Of a DNA stretch of 5,046 bases, positions 1-5,046 are shown piece after piece. A program made the translations under genes and the position numbers. Position 1 is the stretch's first letter. Every line of letters starts with the position of its first letter. A model generated the notes under the pieces. The model saw only the letters and a program-made list of their open reading frames with translations, searched no databases and was not told where the DNA came from. This DNA is from a virus, in the IMG/VR virus record IMGVR_UViG_3300017764_004042. One strand, given 5' to 3'.

Positions 1-123
1 ATGATGAGGGAGAATTCACAGGCAAACTAGTTACAGCAAACAAAGGGGTTGTCTTAGCACCGTATGAAAGGAGACAATACCAAAGGGTAATTGGAACTTT
101 GAATCAACAGATTGATGCTCTCA
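1..123. repeat. Terminal direct repeat, copy 1 (exact duplicate of 4924..5046); circularisation overlap
   Basis: Compared base by base. atgatgagggagaattcacaggcaaactagttacagc...caacagattgatgctctca occurs at both window ends in the same orientation, with no mismatch seen. Implies a unit length of 4923 bp. Confidence 0.95.
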
Positions 124-185
124 AGGCTGAGAGAGACGCTCTCCGCTCTAATAGGTTCAAGTTTTGGAAAAAGATACCTCAATAG
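1..185 (+). CDS. 3' part of the junction-spanning gene (same gene as 4779..5046): putative ribbon-helix-helix plus coiled-coil DNA-binding protein
   Basis: The frame with codons at 3-5, 6-8 and so on is open from the window start to TAG at 183-185, and is in phase with the ORF that runs off the 3' end. The joined ORF (4779..4923 + 1..185) is 330 nt and encodes 109 aa. The C-terminal part YERRQYQRVIGTLNQQIDALKAERDALRSNRF looks like a coiled coil. Confidence 0.7.
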   Translation, partial: DEGEFTGKLVTANKGVVLAPYERRQYQRVIGTLNQQIDALKAERDALRSNRFKFWKKIPQ

Positions 186-191
186 GGGGTA

Positions 192-596
192 TTAACCAAA
201 TATTGCATCTAATAAAGCCGCCAATCCTGCTCTAGAGACAGGGGTTGAACCCGGTAATGGTAAACCTGTTACAGAATCAATAATTACATCACTTCCAATT
301 TCTCCGTAATCAATTGTTAAACCTGCTTCTTTTGCAGCATCGTATTGATTCTTAAAATCTTGATATATTTCACCGACTTCAGTTAGTCCCGGTGCGGCTA
401 CATATTTTATTCCAAAGTAACTACCGATTAATGAAAAGATAAAAGTCATCGCTGAAACGTCGGAAACTAATGCTACTGCAGGGGTTGCGATTTTGTTTAC
501 TTGATATGCAACTAATGCACCTTCAATTAATTCTCTTTCAGATCGGCCAAAAACAATTTCATGTCTTATGACTTGATCTGGTTTTGGCTTAGGCAT
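192..596 (-). CDS. 134-aa hypothetical protein with a central hydrophobic (membrane) segment; last gene of the minus-strand operon
   Basis: ATG start at 596 is preceded by GAGTGAT (SD-like) 3 nt upstream and lies 8 nt after the stop of the upstream gene. The hydrophobic stretch ATPAVALVSDVSAMTFIFSLIGSYFGIKYVAAPG suggests 1-2 TM helices. No family recognised. Confidence 0.8.
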   Translation of the reverse strand: MPKPKPDQVIRHEIVFGRSERELIEGALVAYQVNKIATPAVALVSDVSAMTFIFSLIGSYFGIKYVAAPGLTEVGEIYQDFKNQYDAAKEAGLTIDYGEIGSDVIIDSVTGLPLPGSTPVSRAGLAALLDAIFG

Positions 597-604
597 AAAA
601 TCAC

Positions 605-1837
605 TCAGAATTTAATAGACCATGCAACTTGATTTATTTTGTTTAATTGGTTGTCTGCTTTTGTAAATGAAGCCGGTAAACTTGAGGCTGTGCTGGTGGA
701 TCTAATACAATTGTAAACTGTACCGTTGTAATGACTTAACCCTAAACAAGCAGCCATTGAAGCGCGTGGGACAGTGCTGACATTAGGTCCAGCGCTACCT
801 GTCATAACAATCGCCATCCAATAAGTTTGACCTTGAGTTATTGAAACTGAACTGGTGAAGGTTGTTTGAGTATACAAATCCGCGCCACCGTTCACATCTA
901 ATGTTACTGAACCTTGTAAAGAATCGGGATAACCCTCTGAATCAGTATCATAAACGCCCATAATTAGAGTATCTTTACTAGTATTTGTTACACCCGTTCT
1001 AATTGTAATTTCAGATAAAGTACCCGTTTTATTTGCTATAAATCTATGATAAACTACATATTCATCTTGAACCGCATTATTCAAAGTGTAGTCCATTAAA
1101 CAATTAATATCCCACGGTTGAAACCTAGAATATGTCCCGTCTAATTGAGCGGTTATGGGTTGGAATGCTAATGTTGTTGATCCCCCACCACTCGCCGCCG
1201 TTGATTGAGTTGTTCCGTCGGGAAATGTCAGGCCACCAGAAGCACTTGATACATCCAAGACAAATGAAGCAGATCCGCCTTTAACTTTCAATTTCTGATT
1301 TTCATCACAAATCAAACTAACTGCCTTTGTTGCTGAAGAAATATTGATTTCTGCATCACCAGAAGAAGCAACTAAAGTAAACGTGTTTGTTTTGTTTGTG
1401 GCTAGTAAACCTGTAGCAGATAAAACACCGGCTACGTTGTATTGGATCTGGCCGTCTGCGCCGCCGGGTGTTGCAGATATTGTCATATCATCGTTAGCGC
1501 CCGCACCATGAGCCATTGAAATGTTATTACCGACTACTAATTTACGTGCTGCTGTTAATGCTGTTGGGACTGTTCCTTGATCGTATGCCAATAAATAATC
1601 CGCATCAGTAGGCGCACCACCCGATCCACCGCTTAGAAACCCATCCCAATCACCACGAACCGCCATCCTAGCAAGTTGAACAAGCACTAATCTTCTCAAT
1701 TCATCTTCATTCTCTGGTTCAATGAATAGTTTTTCTGCTACACCTTGAAACTGAGCATACGATAAATTCTCTAGATCGGTCTCTTTTAGTAATTCATATA
1801 TCCTACTGGACCAATTATTTGTATCTGGTAACGGCAT
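605..1837 (-). CDS. 410-aa putative spike / fibre (receptor-binding) protein: N-terminal anchoring module, Gly linker, beta-rich repeat region, C-terminal beta-sandwich-like domain
   Basis: The ORF track gives 605..1870 with a TTG start. I prefer ATG at 1837 (MPLPDTNNWSSRIY...) for two reasons: it parallels the MPLPNAERKSSRIY start of the 72-aa paralogue, and it has GAGTTGAT 4 nt upstream. A linker SGGSGGAP follows the module. The Ser/Thr/Gly/Ala-rich beta region contains LTFPDGTTQSTA, a motif of the kind seen in tail-fibre and glycoprotein repeats. The C-terminal ~180 aa (YHRFIANKTGTLSEITIRTG...GQTYWMAIVM) has a jelly-roll or lectin-like alternating pattern. Confidence 0.85.
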   Translation of the reverse strand: MPLPDTNNWSSRIYELLKETDLENLSYAQFQGVAEKLFIEPENEDELRRLVLVQLARMAVRGDWDGFLSGGSGGAPTDADYLLAYDQGTVPTALTAARKLVVGNNISMAHGAGANDDMTISATPGGADGQIQYNVAGVLSATGLLATNKTNTFTLVASSGDAEINISSATKAVSLICDENQKLKVKGGSASFVLDVSSASGGLTFPDGTTQSTAASGGGSTTLAFQPITAQLDGTYSRFQPWDINCLMDYTLNNAVQDEYVVYHRFIANKTGTLSEITIRTGVTNTSKDTLIMGVYDTDSEGYPDSLQGSVTLDVNGGADLYTQTTFTSSVSITQGQTYWMAIVMTGSAGPNVSTVPRASMAACLGLSHYNGTVYNCIRSTSTASSLPASFTKADNQLNKINQVAWSIKF

Positions 1838-1848
1838 TTTAATCAACT

Positions 1849-2067
1849 CTATGTCAGGAATCCATCCCAATCACCTTTACAGGCTGTGATTGCGAACTTA
1901 ATTAGTACTAATCTTCGTAACTCATCCTCATTCAACTGCATAACGTCTAACGGTTTGCCGACGTTATCAATCGTGGGATTTTCACCGCTTGCGATCTCTT
2001 CAAGCGTTTTACCTTGCATGATAGGATAAATCCTTGAGGACTTCCTTTCAGCATTAGGTAACGGCAT
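1849..2067 (-). CDS. 72-aa protein, free-standing paralogue of the N-terminal module of the 410-aa spike protein
   Basis: ATG at 2067 with AGTGAT SD-like motif upstream. Residues shared with the spike N-terminus: MPLP, SSRIY, NEDELRRLVL, GDWDGFL. The ORF stops exactly where the spike protein continues into its Gly linker. Confidence 0.8.
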   Translation of the reverse strand: MPLPNAERKSSRIYPIMQGKTLEEIASGENPTIDNVGKPLDVMQLNEDELRRLVLIKFAITACKGDWDGFLT

Positions 2068-2077
2068 TCATATCACT

Positions 2078-2248
2078 TTATAATTTTTTAAGATATTTAC
2101 TAACCATGGCTTCAATAGCAATATAATCTTTGGTACTCATAGCCCCAAACTGTTGTTCGCTAGAACCTAACATCCAAAGTTTCTTCGCTTTAGATAATAT
2201 TCCTTTGTAAGCGTTTTTTCTTTGAGTCTTAGTCATCTTCTTAGCCAT
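2078..2248 (-). CDS. 56-aa highly basic small protein (not in supplied ORF track); possible nucleic-acid-binding or internal virion protein
   Basis: Hand translation: MAKKMTKTQRKNAYKGILSKAKKLWMLGSSEQQFGAMSTKDYIAIEAMVSKYLKKL, with TAA at 2078-2080. ATG at 2248 is preceded by GGTGAT, which directly follows the TAA stop of the 228-aa gene (TAAGGTGATTAAATG). It fills an otherwise unexplained 190-nt gap in a tightly packed operon. Confidence 0.65.
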   Translation of the reverse strand: MAKKMTKTQRKNAYKGILSKAKKLWMLGSSEQQFGAMSTKDYIAIEAMVSKYLKKL

Positions 2249-2257
2249 TTAATCACC

Positions 2258-2944
2258 TTAAGCAGAAGTTATGTATTGTGCTGTGTAGTTTAGATCAACA
2301 CGCATTGAACATGGTTTCATGTAAGGTTGAACGACAATAGGATTTGATGCGGCAATAGCGCCACTCAGATTTCCGTTGCTCATTGTTACTTGACATCCCC
2401 CTGCAACGGATGTAATCAATGCTTGATCGATTGAAGTAAATTGGGCTTGGGTTACAACTTGACCTTGAAGAGTTTCTCCAATTGTGTTAGAAGTCTGCAA
2501 ATCAACAAGTTGGAATGTTCCCGCACCTGCTGCTACACTAGCACCAATAAAGATACGTGGAACGCCTTGATTAGTATAAACTGCTAATGAAGCATTCCTG
2601 CCGCCAGCAACCATAGTGAAAACTCTTAACTGATCTCCAGCCATTAGAGTTACAGGGCGAGCGAGACCGGGAGTTCCACACGCAACACCTTTCACGGCAA
2701 AGGGGACCAGAGATAGAATCAATCCTTTCCTTAAGATGTATGCGTATGAAATGTTAGCGCCTGCTGTAACTAATCCAGAAGTTACAGTTTGGCCTGTTGC
2801 GAAGTCCCCGATATTCTGGGCTGTTACGGTATAAGCGGTATCTGTGGTTAGACTTGCTTCGGTTCCGTCAGTAATTGTTGCATTTAGAGGAATCTTGAAA
2901 CCGCTTGAGCAGTTTAGAACACCTGTTACGTTTTGTGTTGTCAT
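2258..2944 (-). CDS. 228-aa beta-rich protein, candidate major capsid/structural protein
   Basis: ATG at 2944 is preceded by the strongest SD in the genome, GAGGTGATC (plus-strand 2949-2957), which overlaps the upstream stop codon. The sequence is rich in Thr/Ala/Gly/Val/Ser with no long hydrophobic segment and an alternating beta-like pattern. The capsid role is inferred from position, size and expression signal only. Confidence 0.85.
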   Translation of the reverse strand: MTTQNVTGVLNCSSGFKIPLNATITDGTEASLTTDTAYTVTAQNIGDFATGQTVTSGLVTAGANISYAYILRKGLILSLVPFAVKGVACGTPGLARPVTLMAGDQLRVFTMVAGGRNASLAVYTNQGVPRIFIGASVAAGAGTFQLVDLQTSNTIGETLQGQVVTQAQFTSIDQALITSVAGGCQVTMSNGNLSGAIAASNPIVVQPYMKPCSMRVDLNYTAQYITSA

Positions 2945-2955
2945 CTTAGATCACC

Positions 2956-3390
2956 TCAAAGTTTGAAACCTGCCCCTAATGGTTTGAATATGTTGCGATT
3001 TACATTTGCTATAGGTCTGCGAAGTAATTTTCTGCCTAGACGAAAACCGATTCCTATTCCTAAAGACTGCACTGCCATTGCTTGATAGTTGTTCATGAAG
3101 TTGTTTTGAACAATTCCAAATGCTTGATCTGGCGCTGAGACTATATCAGCCAAAGAGATCTGGCCGGCACCTACTTCCATAGTTACCATACCAACACCTG
3201 CGCCACCGAATCCGGTCTTGTAACCTAGATCGGCACCACCTGTTACGAATCCAACGGGAGATGTCCCCATTAATCCTTGGGATAATACATTAGCATAAGC
3301 ATAACTTTCTGCTACATTCAATAGTGAAGTCGCTCGACTTCTGCGTGGGCTTCTTGACTTTTTTCTGCGGGCCATGCTGAGATCGGCCAT
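2956..3390 (-). CDS. 144-aa protein with Arg/Lys-rich N-terminus and Gly-rich hydrophobic segments; candidate genome-binding or membrane-associated structural protein
   Basis: First gene after the 3391-3480 spacer, with no SD. N-terminus MADLSMARRKKSRSPRRSRATS, followed by GFVTGGADLGYKTGFGGAGVGMVTMEVGAG and LGIGIGFRLG. An alternative start at Met6 (ATG at 3375) would be leaderless relative to a TATAAA element at 3399-3404. Confidence 0.8.
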   Translation of the reverse strand: MADLSMARRKKSRSPRRSRATSLLNVAESYAYANVLSQGLMGTSPVGFVTGGADLGYKTGFGGAGVGMVTMEVGAGQISLADIVSAPDQAFGIVQNNFMNNYQAMAVQSLGIGIGFRLGRKLLRRPIANVNRNIFKPLGAGFKL

Positions 3391-3480
3391 ATTTCCGGTT
3401 TATAGTAGTTGACTGTCATTTTCCGGAATTCGGAGCAAATTTAGCTAATTTTTTTCCGGAAAACGGAAACCTGGTTTCCG
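3391..3480 (-). promoter_or_regulatory. Intergenic spacer with clustered TTTCCG / CGGAAA half-sites and two perfect palindromes; candidate operator, promoter of the structural operon, or origin
   Basis: TTTCCG occurs at 3392, 3420, 3453 and 3475. CGGAAA or CGGAAT occurs at 3424, 3457 and 3464. There is a 12-bp palindrome TTTTCCGGAAAA at 3452-3463 and a 17-bp palindrome CGGAAACCTGGTTTCCG at 3464-3480. A TATAAA element (minus strand) lies at 3399-3404. Confidence 0.5.
3460..3480 (-). terminator. Possible terminator of the 100-aa gene: hairpin followed by a T-run on the minus strand
   Basis: Immediately after the TAG stop (3481-3483), the minus strand reads CGGAAACCAGGTTTCCG (8-bp arms) and then TTTT. 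The 1-nt centre means the real stem would be about 6-7 bp. The same sequence could instead be a protein-binding palindrome. Confidence 0.3.
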
Positions 3481-3783
3481 CTATTCGTCTTTAGATACAA
3501 ATAATCCTTTATCGTCTCTTTCGATCACTTTCATAGCAGCCGGTTGTTGATTTTGTTGGCTCATGTTAGCAATTAACTGACCGATTGCCATTTGAATTGG
3601 ATTAATCGGCTCACTTTCACCCATTCCCGGGATTTTTTCAACCACTGATCGTATTGCTAACGCCAGTTTTTCGTCTAATTCAATTAATCCGTCTTCAATT
3701 TTATGTCCTAGATCTATTAATAGTTTGAAAACTACGCCAAAACCTACAATTATTGTTCCTATAATATAGAGGGTCTCCATCAT
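3481..3783 (-). CDS. 100-aa protein with N-terminal transmembrane anchor and a helical, Gln-rich C-terminal part
   Basis: The ORF track gives 3481..3915 with a TTG start. I prefer the ATGATG at 3783/3780 (MMETLYIIGTIIVGFGVVFKLLIDLGHK...), which is preceded by GGGGT. An alternative GTG at 3816 would add a basic n-region, FKNRKGLVGV. The longer extension runs through the G-tract region and the divergent promoter region. Confidence 0.7.
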   Translation of the reverse strand: MMETLYIIGTIIVGFGVVFKLLIDLGHKIEDGLIELDEKLALAIRSVVEKIPGMGESEPINPIQMAIGQLIANMSQQNQQPAAMKVIERDDKGLFVSKDE

Positions 3784-3785
3784 GA

Positions 3786-3834
3786 CCCCAACCAACCCCT
3801 TTCGGTTCTTAAACACCCCCCAAACCCCAATCCC
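3786..3834 (-). other. G-tract cluster on the minus strand (C-tracts on plus); potential G-quadruplex / i-motif element
   Basis: Plus-strand C-runs lie at 3786-3789, 3796-3799, 3816-3821 (six C), 3825-3828 and 3832-3834. The minus strand reads GGGATTGGGGTTTGGGGGGTG...GGGGTTGGTTGGGG. This stands out in an AT-rich genome. Confidence 0.4.
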
Positions 3835-3955
3835 AATCCTTTTAATTGGCTTCGTGTGCGAATATACATATTCACAGCCGGTAGGCTGCCGCTTGAAAGG
3901 AATTGAGAGCGTCAAAAAACTGCGTTTTTTTCCTGCCGGCTGAACGCCGGATGTA

Positions 3956-3962
3956 TTATATA
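3956..3962 (+). promoter_or_regulatory. TATA-box-like / -10-like element for the plus-strand operon
   Basis: TTATATA is centred about 26-29 nt upstream of the ATG at 3988, and that ATG has no SD. This geometry fits an archaeal TATA box driving a leaderless or near-leaderless mRNA. It could also be read as a bacterial -10 (TATTAT/TATATA), but I found no convincing -35. Confidence 0.4.
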
Positions 3963-3987
3963 GCCCCTACGGGCCAAAATCGATATT

Positions 3988-4116
3988 ATGGAGACACGCG
4001 ACATTAACGCAGACGCAGAAACAGTTGAAATAAAACGCCATTTGAAAGCATTAGGGGTAAAAGTATCCGGATCAAGAAAAGAATGTTTAGAAAGATTGCA
4101 GGAATCGATATTATGA
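3988..4116 (+). CDS. 42-aa stand-alone SAP / HeH-motif DNA-binding protein
   Basis: Hand translation: METRDINADAETVEIKRHLKALGVKVSGSRKECLERLQESIL. The segment EIKRHLKALGVKVSGSRKECLERL matches the helix-extended loop-helix SAP pattern (ELRxxLxxRGLxxxGxKxxLixRL) nearly position for position. The stop TGA at 4114-4116 overlaps the next ATG (ATGA). Confidence 0.7.
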   Translation: METRDINADAETVEIKRHLKALGVKVSGSRKECLERLQESIL

Positions 4117-4247
4117 AGAGGGACTATCGGTTTGACGACAAGTGTTGTATTTGCAGAATACATCAAAGATACAAAGATGAAAAAATGAGATTATGGGGCA
4201 TTTGTGAAAAATGTAAAGACATGATTAACGGAGATTGGATATTATGA
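4113..4247 (+). CDS. 44-aa zinc-ribbon micro-protein (CxxC-x16-CxxC)
   Basis: Hand translation: MKRDYRFDDKCCICRIHQRYKDEKMRLWGICEKCKDMINGDWIL. Both the start and the stop overlap neighbouring genes in ATGA fashion. Two CxxC pairs are spaced as in a zinc ribbon. Confidence 0.65.
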   Translation: MKRDYRFDDKCCICRIHQRYKDEKMRLWGICEKCKDMINGDWIL

Positions 4248-4366
4248 ATCTAAGATGTTCTAAGTGTCAGTTAGTGTTTCTAGTCAACACCTTTGAAGAT
4301 GTAAGGATCATACAGGCTATGTCTTGTCCAGAAGGAGCAGGTCATAAATTAAGTGAGGTGGCATAA
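4244..4366 (+). CDS. 40-aa putative zinc-binding micro-protein (CxxC ... C-x5-H)
   Basis: Hand translation: MNLRCSKCQLVFLVNTFEDVRIIQAMSCPEGAGHKLSEVA. The stop TAA overlaps the methyltransferase ATG (TAATG). The 3' end of the gene carries the GAGGTG SD for the methyltransferase. Confidence 0.6.
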   Translation: MNLRCSKCQLVFLVNTFEDVRIIQAMSCPEGAGHKLSEVA

Positions 4367-4782
4367 TGTCAAGTGATGATTACAGGACAGACCAATGGAT
4401 TCTTGATCTCTTTCCTAATTTCTTTGACCCTTGCCCATTCAAAGGCATTCACTTGAAACATAACGGACTGCATATGTCATGGAATTATGCAGATTATGAC
4501 GGCGTGTTTGTTAATCCACCTTATTCAGACCCGAACCCTTGGGTTAAGAAAGCAATACAAGAACAGAAAGATGCAAGAAGAAGAGCATATGACCCCGAAG
4601 ATGAGCAAGAGATTTGGTCGGCTGGTACTATTGTTATGCTTCTAAAGCACGACACATCAACAGAATGGTATAGATTGTTACATGAAGCAGACGCTAAGTT
4701 TTTGCTTGTTAATGGTCGTCTAAAACATCAAACAGGTAAGTCTTGCGCTTTTCCTTCAGTTTTGGCGGTGATGTGCTTATGA
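4366..4782 (+). CDS. Phage-type DNA N6-adenine methyltransferase (Dam-like, PF05869 / TIGR01712-type architecture)
   Basis: Contains the catalytic NPPY motif (DGVFVNPPYSD) followed by PWVKKAIQE. Other family-typical blocks are DQWILDLFPNFFDPCP, TIVMLLKHDTSTEWY, LVNGRLKH and AFPSVLAVM. SD GAGGTG lies 6 nt upstream of the ATG. Confidence 0.92.
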   Translation: MSSDDYRTDQWILDLFPNFFDPCPFKGIHLKHNGLHMSWNYADYDGVFVNPPYSDPNPWVKKAIQEQKDARRRAYDPEDEQEIWSAGTIVMLLKHDTSTEWYRLLHEADAKFLLVNGRLKHQTGKSCAFPSVLAVMCL

Positions 4783-5046
4783 GTAAAATATTACATTCGT
4801 TTACTTTACATAAGCATACATCTGAGTTGCTACGATCTAAATCCAAAAAAGGGTATATGTCTGACAATGTATCAACTGCAATTGAATGGTATTACACTTC
4901 ACCGATCTGGACAAAAGAGCGAGATGATGAGGGAGAATTCACAGGCAAACTAGTTACAGCAAACAAAGGGGTTGTCTTAGCACCGTATGAAAGGAGACAA
5001 TACCAAAGGGTAATTGGAACTTTGAATCAACAGATTGATGCTCTCA
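4779..5046 (+). CDS. 5' part of the junction-spanning gene: putative ribbon-helix-helix (Arc/MetJ/CopG-like) plus coiled-coil DNA-binding protein, 109 aa when circularised
   Basis: ATG at 4779 overlaps the methyltransferase stop (ATGA). The N-terminus MSKILHSFTLHKHTSELLRSKSKKGYMSDNVSTAIEWYY fits a strand, helix, turn (G), helix RHH pattern. The ORF is still open at the window end and continues in phase at 124-185. Confidence 0.75.
   Translation, partial: MSKILHSFTLHKHTSELLRSKSKKGYMSDNVSTAIEWYYTSPIWTKERDDEGEFTGKLVTANKGVVLAPYERRQYQRVIGTLNQQIDAL
4924..5046. repeat. Terminal direct repeat, copy 2 (exact duplicate of 1..123)
   Basis: See copy 1. The repeat falls inside a coding sequence, as expected for an assembly or permutation overlap rather than a functional LTR. 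Confidence 0.95.

What the first reader, a model, noticed from the sequence alone, without database searches (positions are those of the whole stretch)
1..5046. The window is a complete ~4,923-bp circular (or terminally redundant) genome
Bases 1-123 and 4924-5046 are identical direct repeats. The ORF starting at 4779 is open at the window end and reads in phase into 124-185, ending at TAG 183-185, so a full 109-aa product only exists on the joined molecule. With the ends joined, the gene order forms two clean modules that diverge at 3784-3987 and converge at 185/192. A self-contained replicon this small, carrying a fibre-like protein, candidate structural proteins and a phage-type methyltransferase, looks like a minimal virus genome rather than a chromosomal fragment.
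Basis: seen in the sequence. Interest (0 to 1): 0.85.

Follow-up and report, generated by a model that had tools for sequence, protein, structure and literature searches.

The report
Complete circular Charybdis-element genome
The window is one complete 4,923-bp circular genome of a "Charybdis element", a marine virus-like element of Marine Group II archaea first described in a 2025 preprint, whose way of replicating and packaging its DNA is still unknown.

Summary
Bases 1-123 and 4924-5046 are identical, and the 109-aa ORF that crosses the join is a real, conserved gene. The repeat is an assembler overlap from a circular or concatemeric molecule, not a physical terminal repeat. Thirty-one of 44 related IMG/VR contigs carry exact end repeats of k-mer-like lengths at different genome positions. 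All longer contigs are concatemers of a 4.4-4.9 kb unit.

The genome belongs to the Charybdis elements (Kirchberger & Luque, bioRxiv 2025). It has the hallmark Gp3, 91% identical to a genome named in that paper. It also has the gp1-gp2-gp3 synteny, a "Type II" fibre, an accessory methyltransferase and no recognisable replication, packaging or plasmid gene. The host is probably Marine Group II archaea. Whether it is a virus, a satellite or a vesicle-borne element is unresolved.

Details I did not find in the preprint:
- The divergent control region has two conserved TATA-like boxes, 24-25 nt from each module's first ATG.
- Between them lie four covarying hairpins and a conserved G-rich block. 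This is a candidate origin or control element.
- A free-standing copy of the fibre's N-terminal knob (g72) is conserved.

Novelty is modest because the family is already described.

The parts
1..123 (.). First copy of the 123-nt exact terminal direct repeat (assembly overlap of a circular or concatemeric molecule). It lies inside the g109 coding sequence.
4924..5046 (.). Second copy of the 123-nt terminal direct repeat. The non-redundant genome is 1-4923.
4779..5046 (+). g109, 5' part (residues 1-89). It continues at 124-185, with the stop codon TAG at 183-185. It is a core, family-restricted orphan protein with a C-terminal coiled-coil-like segment and a basic tail.
1..185 (+). g109, 3' part on the joined molecule (residues 49-109 plus the stop codon).
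192..596 (-). gp6 equivalent (134 aa). The N-terminal half is conserved and contains a predicted transmembrane helix (residues 40-58). The C-terminal half is variable.
605..1837 (-). gp5 'Type II' protrusion or fibre (410 aa). It has an N-terminal three-helix knob (residues 6-60), a Gly-rich stalk and a C-terminal lectin-type beta-sandwich (about residues 240-410).
1849..2067 (-). g72, a free-standing paralog of the gp5 N-terminal knob (44% identity over 72 aa, E 8e-19). It is conserved at 83-97% identity in the clade.
2078..2248 (-). g56, a small basic ORF (13 K/R in 56 aa). It is detected in only 5 related genomes.
2258..2944 (-). gp3 hallmark protein (228 aa). It is an all-beta, two-domain protein and the candidate capsid protein.
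2956..3375 (-). gp2 (139 aa from M6). It has an arginine-rich N-terminus (8 K/R in the first 20 residues), a Gly-rich variable middle and an invariant C-terminus. It is a candidate DNA-binding internal protein.
3406..3483 (-). Insertion of about 81 nt just after the gp1 stop codon, containing TTCCGGAA palindromes and hairpins. Among the contigs searched it is present only in this window, L011 and L054. The boundaries are approximate.
3481..3783 (-). gp1 (100 aa) with an N-terminal transmembrane helix (residues 5-23).
3808..3813 (-). Invariant TTTAAG box, 24 nt upstream of the gp1 ATG. It is the candidate archaeal TATA box of the structural operon and would give a leaderless mRNA.
3814..3848 (-). 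Conserved G-rich non-coding block (AAAAGGATTGGGATTGGGGTTTGGGGGG...).
3859..3950 (-). Array of four short hairpins whose stems covary between lineages. In window coordinates: HP1 3936-3950, HP2 3914-3930, HP3 3875-3888, HP4 3859-3874.
3954..3962 (+). Invariant TATTATATA box, 25 nt upstream of the first accessory-module ATG. It is the candidate archaeal TATA box of the accessory operon.
3988..4116 (+). g42, a 42-aa SAP-motif ORF. It is unique to this genome among the 45 compared and is flanked by 17-nt direct repeats (3978-3994 and 4103-4119).
4113..4247 (+). g44, a Cys-rich (CxxC...CxxC) small ORF that is a core gene. Its start overlaps the upstream stop codon (ATGA).
4244..4366 (+). g40, a Cys-rich small ORF that is a core gene (85-100% identity in the clade).
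4366..4782 (+). Dam-type N6-adenine DNA methyltransferase (PF05869, NPPY motif). It is an accessory gene, present in 5 of 45 genomes.

Best explanation
The window is the complete, circularly closed 4,923-bp genome of a Charybdis element. These are small, probably double-stranded-DNA, virus-like elements of marine Group II (Poseidoniales) archaea.

Shown:
- The 123-nt end repeat is the overlap an assembler leaves when it walks once around a circle or a head-to-tail concatemer.
- The genome has two opposed operons. The structural module is gp1 (membrane helix), gp2 (Arg-rich N-terminus), gp3 (two-domain beta protein, the family hallmark), g56, g72 (knob only), gp5 (knob, stalk and lectin-like head) and gp6 (membrane helix). 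The second module holds two Cys-rich ORFs and g109 as core genes, plus swappable cassettes. In this genome the cassettes are a SAP-motif ORF and a Dam-type methyltransferase.
- The 200-nt divergent spacer is conserved in architecture. It contains TATA-like boxes 24-25 nt from the first ATG of each module, four hairpins whose stems covary, and a G-rich block.

Inferred:
- Both operons are transcribed from archaeal-type promoters as leaderless mRNAs. Internal genes use GGTGAT-type Shine-Dalgarno sites or ATGA stop-start coupling.
- The hairpin and G-rich region, which would lie outside both transcripts, is the cis-acting origin or control region.
- Because no replication protein is encoded, replication depends on host or helper factors.
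- gp3 forms a small shell, probably associated with membrane. gp2 binds the DNA inside it, and gp5 trimers anchored by their helical knob serve as the receptor-binding fibre.

I put the autonomous tail-less virus reading at about 0.45, a vesicle- or plasmid-like element at about 0.3, and a satellite of a helper virus at about 0.2.
For: Circularity and completeness:
- The exact 123-nt terminal repeat and the in-frame junction ORF.
- The junction gene is contiguous in 40 of 43 relatives, and the join is collinear at the nucleotide level.
- Forty-four relatives are 4.2-5.9 kb. Thirty-one of these have exact end repeats of 123, 127, 99 and similar lengths at different genome positions.
- Synteny is complete.
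- Contigs of 9-16 kb are concatemers of a 4.4-4.9 kb unit.

Family membership:
- gp3 is 91% identical to that of L012 (IMGVR_UViG_3300017782_005554), which the preprint names in its Fig. 5D.
- The gp3 model is confident (pLDDT 88, pTM 0.86) and all-beta with two domains. It has no PDB neighbour. Its only neighbour in the viral library is a half-size homolog.
- gp5 has a three-helix knob, a stalk and a beta-sandwich head. Its best match is the cyanophage A4 Z protein (E 5e-7), as the preprint reports for Type II.
- The genome has a Dam methyltransferase (PF05869, E 1e-13) and no other family hits.
- gp3 is absent from the curated plasmid and phage collections.

Host:
- A gp3 homolog is binned in a Poseidoniales MAG.
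- L052 is a Marine Group II scaffold on which RtcB and an archaeal-type AlaRS (TIGR03683, 918 bits) abut gp1-gp3.
- The preprint reports 24 integrated clade-P copies.

Control region:
- The TATATAATA and TTAAG boxes are invariant.
- No sigma-70 consensus is present there.
- All 35 spacers fold into the same hairpin array, with a mean z-score of -4.5.
- On the covariance-model alignment, 95.4% of cells are paired against 82.6% when shuffled. Fourteen of 25 pairs carry double changes, against 3 or fewer in the slid controls.
- Shine-Dalgarno-like motifs occur before 6 internal genes and before neither first gene.
- gp1 and gp6 have predicted membrane helices, and gp2 has a basic N-terminus.
Against: - No reads were available, so closure rests on the assembly and on comparison with relatives.
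- A head-to-tail concatemer would give the same end repeat as a monomeric circle.
- No capsid, packaging or replication protein is recognisable by sequence or fold, so the virion model is inference.
- The gp3 fold has no known capsid counterpart.
- The promoter assignment rests only on conservation and geometry. No transcription start data exist, and the preprint found no transcripts.
- The pair counts were made on an alignment fitted to the model. RNAalifold on an unfitted MAFFT alignment recovered only 2 invariant pairs.
- Palindromic protein-binding sites that co-evolve with a binding protein could mimic hairpin covariation.
- The L052 junction truncates alaS at profile position 793 of 902, so it may be an assembly chimera.
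- The GC-skew minimum lies in the spacer, but this is confounded by gene orientation.
Confidence: 0.9

Rival explanations
1. It is a vesicle-borne or plasmid-like element and not a virus. The circle is replicated by host factors and exported in membrane vesicles. gp1, gp2 and gp6 would be membrane proteins, and gp5 and gp3 would be surface or adhesion factors.
For: No capsid, packaging or replication hallmark is found. Two or three proteins of the structural module are predicted to be membrane-associated. The preprint finds the elements in the extracellular-vesicle / small tail-less virus density fraction.
Against: Genome size is tightly constrained (3.7-5.2 kb across thousands of genomes; 4.2-5.0 kb units here), which is unlike plasmids. 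There is no Rep or mobilisation gene, and gp3 has no hit in PLSDB. gp5 has the modular knob-stalk-head design of viral receptor-binding proteins, and its head is homologous to phage proteins.
Confidence: 0.3
2. It is a satellite that borrows its capsid, replication functions, or both, from a helper virus of Marine Group II archaea, and supplies only its own fibre and accessory proteins.
For: There is no replication or packaging gene. The gp5 head resembles proteins of tailed phages. Concatemers are seen.
Against: There are no homologs of helper-manipulating satellite genes, and no integrase or primase in this clade. The elements are nearly absent from the tailed-virus density fraction. gp1, gp2 and gp3 are conserved as a strict core, which suggests the element builds a structure of its own.
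Confidence: 0.2
3. It is a linear genome with genuine 123-bp physical terminal repeats.
For: An exact direct terminal repeat is present.
Against: The same repeat length (123) recurs in 9 other relatives, alongside 127, 99, 55 and other lengths. These repeats fall at different genome positions and inside different genes. The repeat cuts through a conserved gene that is contiguous elsewhere. Multi-unit concatemers exist.
Confidence: 0.03
4. It is a single-stranded-DNA virus (Microviridae- or CRESS-like) recovered as its replicative form.
For: Its size and circularity resemble small ssDNA viruses. The origin-like hairpins and the concatemers are compatible with rolling-circle replication.
Against: There is no HUH Rep, no F-type or single-jelly-roll capsid gene and no PHROG or Pfam hit. 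DNA methyltransferases are common cassettes. The preprint reports detection in libraries that exclude ssDNA.
Confidence: 0.04

Closest known systems
Charybdis elements (Kirchberger & Luque, bioRxiv 10.1101/2025.08.03.668216)
   Same: The window shares all the family's features: a circular genome in the 3.7-5.2 kb range, two opposed modules, gp1-gp2-gp3 synteny and the Gp3 hallmark (91% identical to a genome named in the paper). It also has a Type II gp5 with an N-terminal three-helix knob and a lectin-type head, a membrane/helical gp6, methyltransferase cassettes, no replication gene and a link to Marine Group II archaea.
   Different: This genome lies near the upper end of the size range. It carries a SAP-motif cassette not seen in the 44 relatives, and an 81-nt insertion in the gp1-gp2 spacer. 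A term search of the preprint found no mention of the promoter boxes, the covarying hairpin array or the G-rich block (the terms 'promoter' and 'intergenic' do not occur). 'gp4' does not occur either, so the knob-only g72 position appears undescribed.
Small tail-less membrane-containing Varidnaviria (for example Corticoviridae PM2 and Autolykiviridae)
   Same: Both have a candidate capsid protein made of two beta-sandwich domains, vertex-type fibres with a conserved anchoring N-terminus, small membrane proteins and low buoyant density.
   Different: Foldseek finds no double-jelly-roll match for gp3. There is no FtsK/HerA packaging ATPase and no single-jelly-roll penton gene. The genome is about half the size of the smallest members.
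Pleolipoviridae and vesicle-forming archaeal plasmids such as pR1SE
   Same: All are small circular elements of Euryarchaeota with membrane proteins. Some lack a recognisable replication protein.
   Different: There is no homology to pleolipovirus spike or membrane proteins. The genome is smaller. A conserved beta-rich gp3 and a knob-stalk-head fibre are present.
Clavaviridae (APBV1, 5.3-kb circular dsDNA archaeal virus; from my own knowledge)
   Same: It is a precedent for a roughly 5-kb circular dsDNA archaeal virus with orphan genes and no identifiable replication protein.
   Different: APBV1 has an alpha-helical capsid protein, a bacilliform virion and a hyperthermophilic host. No sequence or fold similarity was found.
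Microviridae
   Same: The genome size and circular topology are the same, and both are found in the small-virus fraction.
   Different: Microviridae have ssDNA, a large F capsid protein and an HUH replication protein. None of these is present here.

Membership tests
Charybdis elements | Encodes the Gp3 hallmark (about 230 aa, at least 30% identity across the family, two beta-sandwich domains, no match to known folds) | tested here: met
   g228 is 228 aa and 73-97% identical to the gp3 of 42 IMG/VR relatives. This includes 91% identity to L012, which the preprint names. The AlphaFold2 model has pLDDT 88 and about 18 strands in two domains. There is no PDB hit (best E 0.06). The only BFVD hit is a half-size homolog.
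Charybdis elements | Circular genome of 3.7-5.2 kb recovered with direct terminal repeats; larger contigs are concatemers | tested here: met
   The unit is 4,923 bp with a 123-nt exact repeat. Relatives are circularly permuted. Concatemers are seen in L045-L047, L050 and L053.
Charybdis elements | Two oppositely oriented modules; the structural module begins gp1-gp2-gp3 | tested here: met
   The ORF map and synteny in all 44 relatives.
Charybdis elements | gp5 protrusion with an N-terminal antiparallel three-helix bundle; Type II adds a stalk and a C-terminal lectin-type jelly-roll resembling the cyanophage A4 Z protein | tested here: met
   Helices at residues 6-19, 27-39 and 44-60, and a C-terminal beta domain with pLDDT 80-91. 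The best PDB match is 9jwb_Z (E 5.1e-7, TMt 0.61). The trimeric state was not tested.
Charybdis elements | gp6 downstream of gp5, predicted to be alpha-helical | tested here: inconclusive
   g134 is syntenic and conserved in its N-terminal half, and has a predicted transmembrane helix. No structure model was made.
Charybdis elements | Accessory module enriched in methyltransferases; no recognisable replication gene | tested here: met
   PF05869 Dam in this genome. C5 and N6 methyltransferases occupy the same slot in relatives, and no Rep or integrase is present. g109 is an orphan.
Charybdis elements | Exclusively marine origin; enrichment in the low-density (vesicle / small-virus) fraction | not testable with these tools
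   The source of the window is not given. Some relatives come from Tara and Red Sea assemblies.
Varidnaviria (double-jelly-roll viruses) | Double-jelly-roll major capsid protein and an FtsK/HerA-type packaging ATPase | tested here: not met
   There is no ATPase ORF and no Pfam or PHROG hit. Foldseek on gp3 gives no double-jelly-roll match in the PDB or BFVD.
Caudoviricetes or their satellites | HK97-fold capsid, terminase and portal; for satellites, an integrase or primase plus capsid-redirecting genes | tested here: not met
   No such PHROG or Pfam hits were found. Only the head domain of gp5 resembles phage fibre or decoration proteins.
Microviridae / CRESS ssDNA viruses | HUH rolling-circle Rep and an F-type or single-jelly-roll capsid protein | tested here: not met
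   No Rep or capsid family hits.
Plasmids | Replication initiator, partition or mobilisation genes; relatives among known plasmids | tested here: not met
   No such domains were found. gp3 tblastn finds nothing in PLSDB.

The most novel reading that the evidence does not exclude
The element is an autonomous, tail-less archaeal virus whose shell is built from gp3, a capsid-protein fold unrelated to any known one. That would make it the seed of a new viral realm. In this reading it carries no replication protein because the conserved array of four covarying hairpins plus the G-rich block, set between two leaderless promoters, is a minimal origin that recruits the Marine Group II host replisome directly.
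Probability: 0.35. Interest if true: 0.85.

Novelty: new member of a known kind. Interest (0 to 1): 0.55.

Why it matters
Charybdis elements are abundant and globally distributed. They are linked to one of the most common uncultured archaeal groups in the ocean, yet they carry none of the genes used to recognise viruses, plasmids or transposons. If they are viruses, their capsid protein would define a new lineage. They would also be among the smallest dsDNA viruses of prokaryotes.

This window adds one complete genome, with a SAP-motif cassette and a spacer insertion. More usefully, comparing it with its relatives exposes a conserved control region: two promoter-like boxes, four covarying hairpins and a G-rich block. 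This gives a concrete, testable candidate for how a genome without a replication gene is transcribed and copied.

Tried and rejected
- Pfam and PHROG scans of all 12 ORFs hit only Dam and SAP.
- blastn of the whole genome and tblastn of gp3 against GenBank phages and PLSDB plasmids found nothing.
- Profile searches of g109 and gp2 against PDB sequences found nothing meaningful. ETS-domain hits at E of about 1 were ignored.
- A large-database profile search for g109 found only family members, with no domains.
- RNAalifold on a plain MAFFT alignment of the spacer recovered only 2 invariant pairs, because loop-length differences shift the registers. I replaced it with per-sequence folding and a covariance-model alignment.
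- The Rfam scan gave only a sub-threshold gut-2 match (21 bits against a threshold of 39.8) over the G-rich block, which I rejected. There are no tRNAs.
- The sigma-70 promoter scan found nothing upstream of either module.
- The TTCCGGAA motif is not enriched beyond chance over the whole window.
- I tested whether the 81-nt spacer insertion is a widespread mobile element. It occurs only in two other Charybdis-sized contigs.
- I considered L052 as proof of integration. I downgraded it to ambiguous because alaS is truncated exactly at the junction.
- The SAP ORF was too short for the related-loci tool.
- By eye, g109 residues 3-40 resemble a ribbon-helix-helix motif. No tool result supports this, so I do not claim it.

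Full report
**Observation**

Bases 1-123 and 4924-5046 are identical, and 123 nt is the longest exact terminal overlap. The non-redundant unit is 4,923 bp with 40.4% GC.

The ORF starting at 4779 is open at the window end. On the joined molecule it reads in frame to TAG 183-185 and gives a 109-aa product.

A minus-strand module runs from 3783 to 192. A plus-strand module runs from 3988 across the join to 185. They diverge at 3784-3987, and their stop codons converge 6 nt apart.

**Is the closure real?**

I searched IMG/VR with the 228-aa protein. This returned 44 contigs, all 4.2-5.9 kb, encoding it at 49-97% identity and starting at widely different offsets.

Thirty-one of these contigs carry exact end repeats. 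The lengths are 123 (nine contigs), 127 (five), 99 (two), and values such as 55 and 47. From my own knowledge, these are typical maximum k-mer sizes of metagenome assemblers. The repeats lie at different places in the shared gene map. That is what circular molecules opened at arbitrary points would produce. Fixed physical ends would not.

All core genes are syntenic in all relatives. The junction-spanning protein is recovered full-length in one piece in 40 of 43 relatives. The joined nucleotide sequence is collinear with four relatives that I checked.

Every contig longer than one unit that I examined is a direct or inverted concatemer of a 4.4-4.9 kb unit, without host flanks. These are L045 (15.7 kb), L046 (9.0 kb), L047 (12.4 kb), L050 (11.1 kb) and L053 (7.1 kb). 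The window is therefore one complete genome.

**What is it?**

Only two ORFs match any Pfam or PHROG family:
- A Dam-type N6-adenine methyltransferase (PF05869, E 1e-13).
- A 42-aa SAP motif (26.4 bits against a threshold of 23.9).

The genome and its 228-aa protein have no match in GenBank phages or PLSDB plasmids.

A full-text search found one paper that describes this kind of element: Kirchberger & Luque, bioRxiv 10.1101/2025.08.03.668216. Their "Charybdis elements" have the following features:
- They are circular, about 4.6 kb (3,706-5,181 bp), exclusively marine, and carry about 10 genes in two opposed modules.
- The hallmark protein Gp3 is about 230 aa with a two-domain Greek-key fold.
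- There is a variable gp5 "protrusion" and a helical gp6.
- The cassettes are rich in methyltransferases, and there is no replication gene.
- The elements are enriched in the low-density vesicle / small-virus fraction.
- One clade is integrated in Marine Group II (Poseidoniales) genomes.

One of my related loci, L012 (IMGVR_UViG_3300017782_005554), is named in their Fig. 5D. Its Gp3 is 91% identical to the window's.

**Independent membership tests**

*gp3.* The model, built from 32 homologs, is confident (pLDDT 88.3, pTM 0.86). It is all-beta with two domains. Foldseek finds no meaningful neighbour in the PDB (best E 0.06, TM about 0.17). The only neighbour in the viral structure library is an unnamed 103-aa protein that matches one domain (36% identity, TMt 0.88). 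This fits the split-Gp3 clades the preprint mentions.

*gp5.* It has 334 homologs, all on contigs of element size. Its model shows three N-terminal helices (residues 6-60), a Gly-rich stalk that cannot be modelled as a monomer, and a confident C-terminal beta-sandwich. The best structural match of that domain is chain Z of the cyanophage A4 capsid (E 5e-7). Phage baseplate, central-fibre and tail-tip proteins follow. This is the preprint's "Type II" protrusion.

*Methyltransferase.* It is present in only 5 of the 45 genomes. It clusters with GenBank AXH79284.1 from a "Circular genetic element sp.". The same slot in relatives holds C5 or other N6 methyltransferases, or small Cys-rich ORFs. It never holds a Rep or an integrase.

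*g109.* This is the one well-conserved larger protein of that module. It has relatives only in these elements, no Pfam domain, and no sequence relative with a solved structure.

**Host**

- One gp3 homolog is annotated in a Candidatus Poseidoniales MAG, but on a 5-kb contig.
- A scan of GTDB genomes found three relatives. Two are free elements binned to bacteria. This is probably spurious binning, as the preprint also argues.
- The third, L052, is a Marine Group II scaffold. On it, RtcB and an archaeal-type alanine-tRNA ligase (TIGR03683, 918 bits) run directly into gp1-gp2-gp3 and the knob protein.
- Homology to free elements begins exactly at the ATTAAGAACCGATG box, 30 nt upstream of gp1. 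GC drops from 50.7% to 43.9% at that point.
- However, the ligase is cut off at profile position 793 of 902. I therefore treat L052 as either an integration junction or an assembly chimera.

**The control region**

A term search of the preprint found no occurrence of 'promoter' or 'intergenic', and 'origin' occurs only in other senses.

I made a whole-genome alignment of 33 closed relatives. In it, the non-coding stretch just upstream of gp1 is as conserved as coding sequence (about 0.80). At nucleotide level the roughly 200-nt divergent spacer has the same architecture in all of them:
- An invariant TATATAATA box (window 3954-3962) lies 25 nt from the first accessory-module ATG.
- Four short inverted repeats follow.
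- Next comes a conserved G-rich block.
- An invariant TTAAG box (window 3808-3813) lies 24 nt from the gp1 ATG.

Both boxes persist in relatives whose gp3 is only about 50% identical. No sigma-70 consensus is present there.

The first gene of each module lacks a Shine-Dalgarno motif. Six internal genes carry GGTGA/GTGAT-type motifs, and two others use ATGA stop-start overlap. From established knowledge of archaeal transcription, a TATA box centred about 26 nt upstream of the start site, leaderless first cistrons and Shine-Dalgarno sites at internal genes form the typical archaeal operon layout. On that basis I infer two back-to-back archaeal promoters.

The inverted repeats differ in sequence between lineages, but their arms stay complementary. 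Hairpin 1, for example, runs GCGGC/GCCGC, CCGGC/GCCGG, GCTCG/CGAGC, CGCCG/CGGCG and AGGGCA/TGCCCT. The tests gave these results:
- Folding each of 35 spacers with DNA parameters gives the same array. Z-scores run from -2.95 to -5.8 (mean -4.5) against dinucleotide shuffles.
- RNAalifold on a plain MAFFT alignment failed because the registers shift.
- A covariance model seeded from seven well-aligned sequences hits once per genome, always in this spacer. In the window the hit is 3838-3962 on the minus strand.
- On the resulting alignment, 95.4% of cells pair, against 82.6% in shuffles (0 of 500 shuffles reach the observed value).
- Fourteen of 25 pairs show changes on both sides. The slid controls show 3 or fewer, with 42-53% of cells paired.

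That alignment is fitted to the model, so the counts lean towards the structure. The per-sequence folds and the slid controls do not share that bias.

If the promoter assignment is right, the array lies outside both transcripts, so the constraint would act on DNA. I propose it as the candidate origin or control region. The cumulative GC-skew minimum falls there too, but gene orientation confounds this.

**Proteins of the structural module**

- gp1 and gp6 each have a strong predicted transmembrane helix.
- gp2 has 8 K/R in its first 20 residues, a variable Gly-rich centre and an invariant C-terminus. An arginine-rich N-terminus is common in proteins that bind packaged nucleic acid. This is the basis for my inference that gp2 is an internal DNA-binding protein.
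- g72 is a free-standing paralog of the gp5 knob (44% identity over all 72 residues, E 8e-19). It is conserved at 83-97% in the clade and is also present on L052. The preprint text does not mention a gp4. g72 may cap or co-assemble with the fibre anchor. This was not tested.

**Features specific to this genome**

- The SAP-motif ORF is unique among the 45 genomes. It is bracketed by 17-nt direct repeats that copy the native start context, AATCGATATTATG. This suggests cassette insertion at that junction.
- An insertion of about 81 nt follows the gp1 stop codon. It contains TTCCGGAA palindromes and hairpins. Among the contigs searched it is shared only with L011 and L054.

**Verdict**

This is a complete circular genome of a Charybdis element with a Type II fibre, so it is a new member of a kind described in 2025.

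Whether it is an autonomous virus, a satellite or a vesicle-borne element cannot be decided from sequence. I favour a small membrane-associated tail-less virus that depends on host replication factors, at about 0.45.

Noticed in passing
window 3859-3950 (minus strand); equivalent position in L001-L042, L047, L048 and L050: Four consecutive short hairpins sit in the divergent spacer. Their stems differ between lineages but stay complementary. The mean z-score is -4.5, and 14 of 25 pairs carry compensatory changes. A term search of the preprint did not find this described.
   Followed up: yes
window 3954-3962 (+) and 3808-3813 (-): Invariant TATA-like boxes lie 25 and 24 nt from the first ATG of each module. 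The first genes lack Shine-Dalgarno motifs, while internal genes carry GGTGAT-type motifs. This is an archaeal-style leaderless operon layout.
   Followed up: partly
window 3814-3848 (minus strand): This is the most conserved non-coding block of the genome. It is a run of G-tracts (GGGATTGGGGTTTGGGGGG) immediately upstream of the TTTAAG box. It is G-quadruplex-capable in most relatives (which have a G7 tract) and less so here. Its function is unknown.
   Followed up: partly
window 1849-2067 (minus strand); L052 6165-6389: g72 is a stand-alone copy of the N-terminal three-helix knob of the gp5 fibre (44% identity, E 8e-19). It is highly conserved across the clade and is also present in a distant relative.
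   Followed up: partly
window 3978-4119: The 42-aa SAP-motif ORF is unique to this genome. It is flanked by 17-nt direct repeats (3978-3994 and 4103-4119, 94% identical) that duplicate the start context of the module's native first gene. This suggests cassette insertion.
   Followed up: partly
window ~3406-3483; L011 ~100-200; L054 ~2567: An insertion of about 81 nt follows the gp1 stop codon. It has TTCCGGAA palindromes and 7-bp stems that covary between the window and L011. Among the contigs searched it occurs in only these three elements.
   Followed up: partly
L052 (LUSA01000020.1) 1-6821: On this Marine Group II scaffold, RtcB and an archaeal AlaRS abut gp1-gp3 of a relative. The breakpoint is exactly at the ATTAAGAACCGATG promoter box, and alaS is truncated at profile position 793 of 902. 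It is either an integration junction or an assembly chimera.
   Followed up: partly
L050 1-11061: This dimer-like contig has two copies of the structural module that are 99.6% identical, but the flanking accessory regions differ (a C5 methyltransferase versus small ORFs). This suggests co-occurring variants that differ only in their cassettes.
   Followed up: no
L045 1-15041: This concatemer contains both direct and inverted copies of the unit. It could be a long-read or assembly artefact, or a palindromic replication intermediate.
   Followed up: no
BFVD entry A0A345N4I3: An unnamed 103-aa viral-database protein matches one domain of gp3 (36% identity, TMt 0.88). It is probably a split-Gp3 gene of a basal Charybdis clade.
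   Followed up: no
L043, L045, L046, L051-L053 versus window and L001-L042: Relatives whose gp3 is about 50% identical have 42-55% GC, against 37-40% in the window's clade. This suggests different host lineages.
   Followed up: no
window 4113-4116 and 4244-4247: Successive small accessory ORFs end and start in the same ATATTATGA context, with ATGA stop-start overlap. This is consistent with translational coupling.
   Followed up: no
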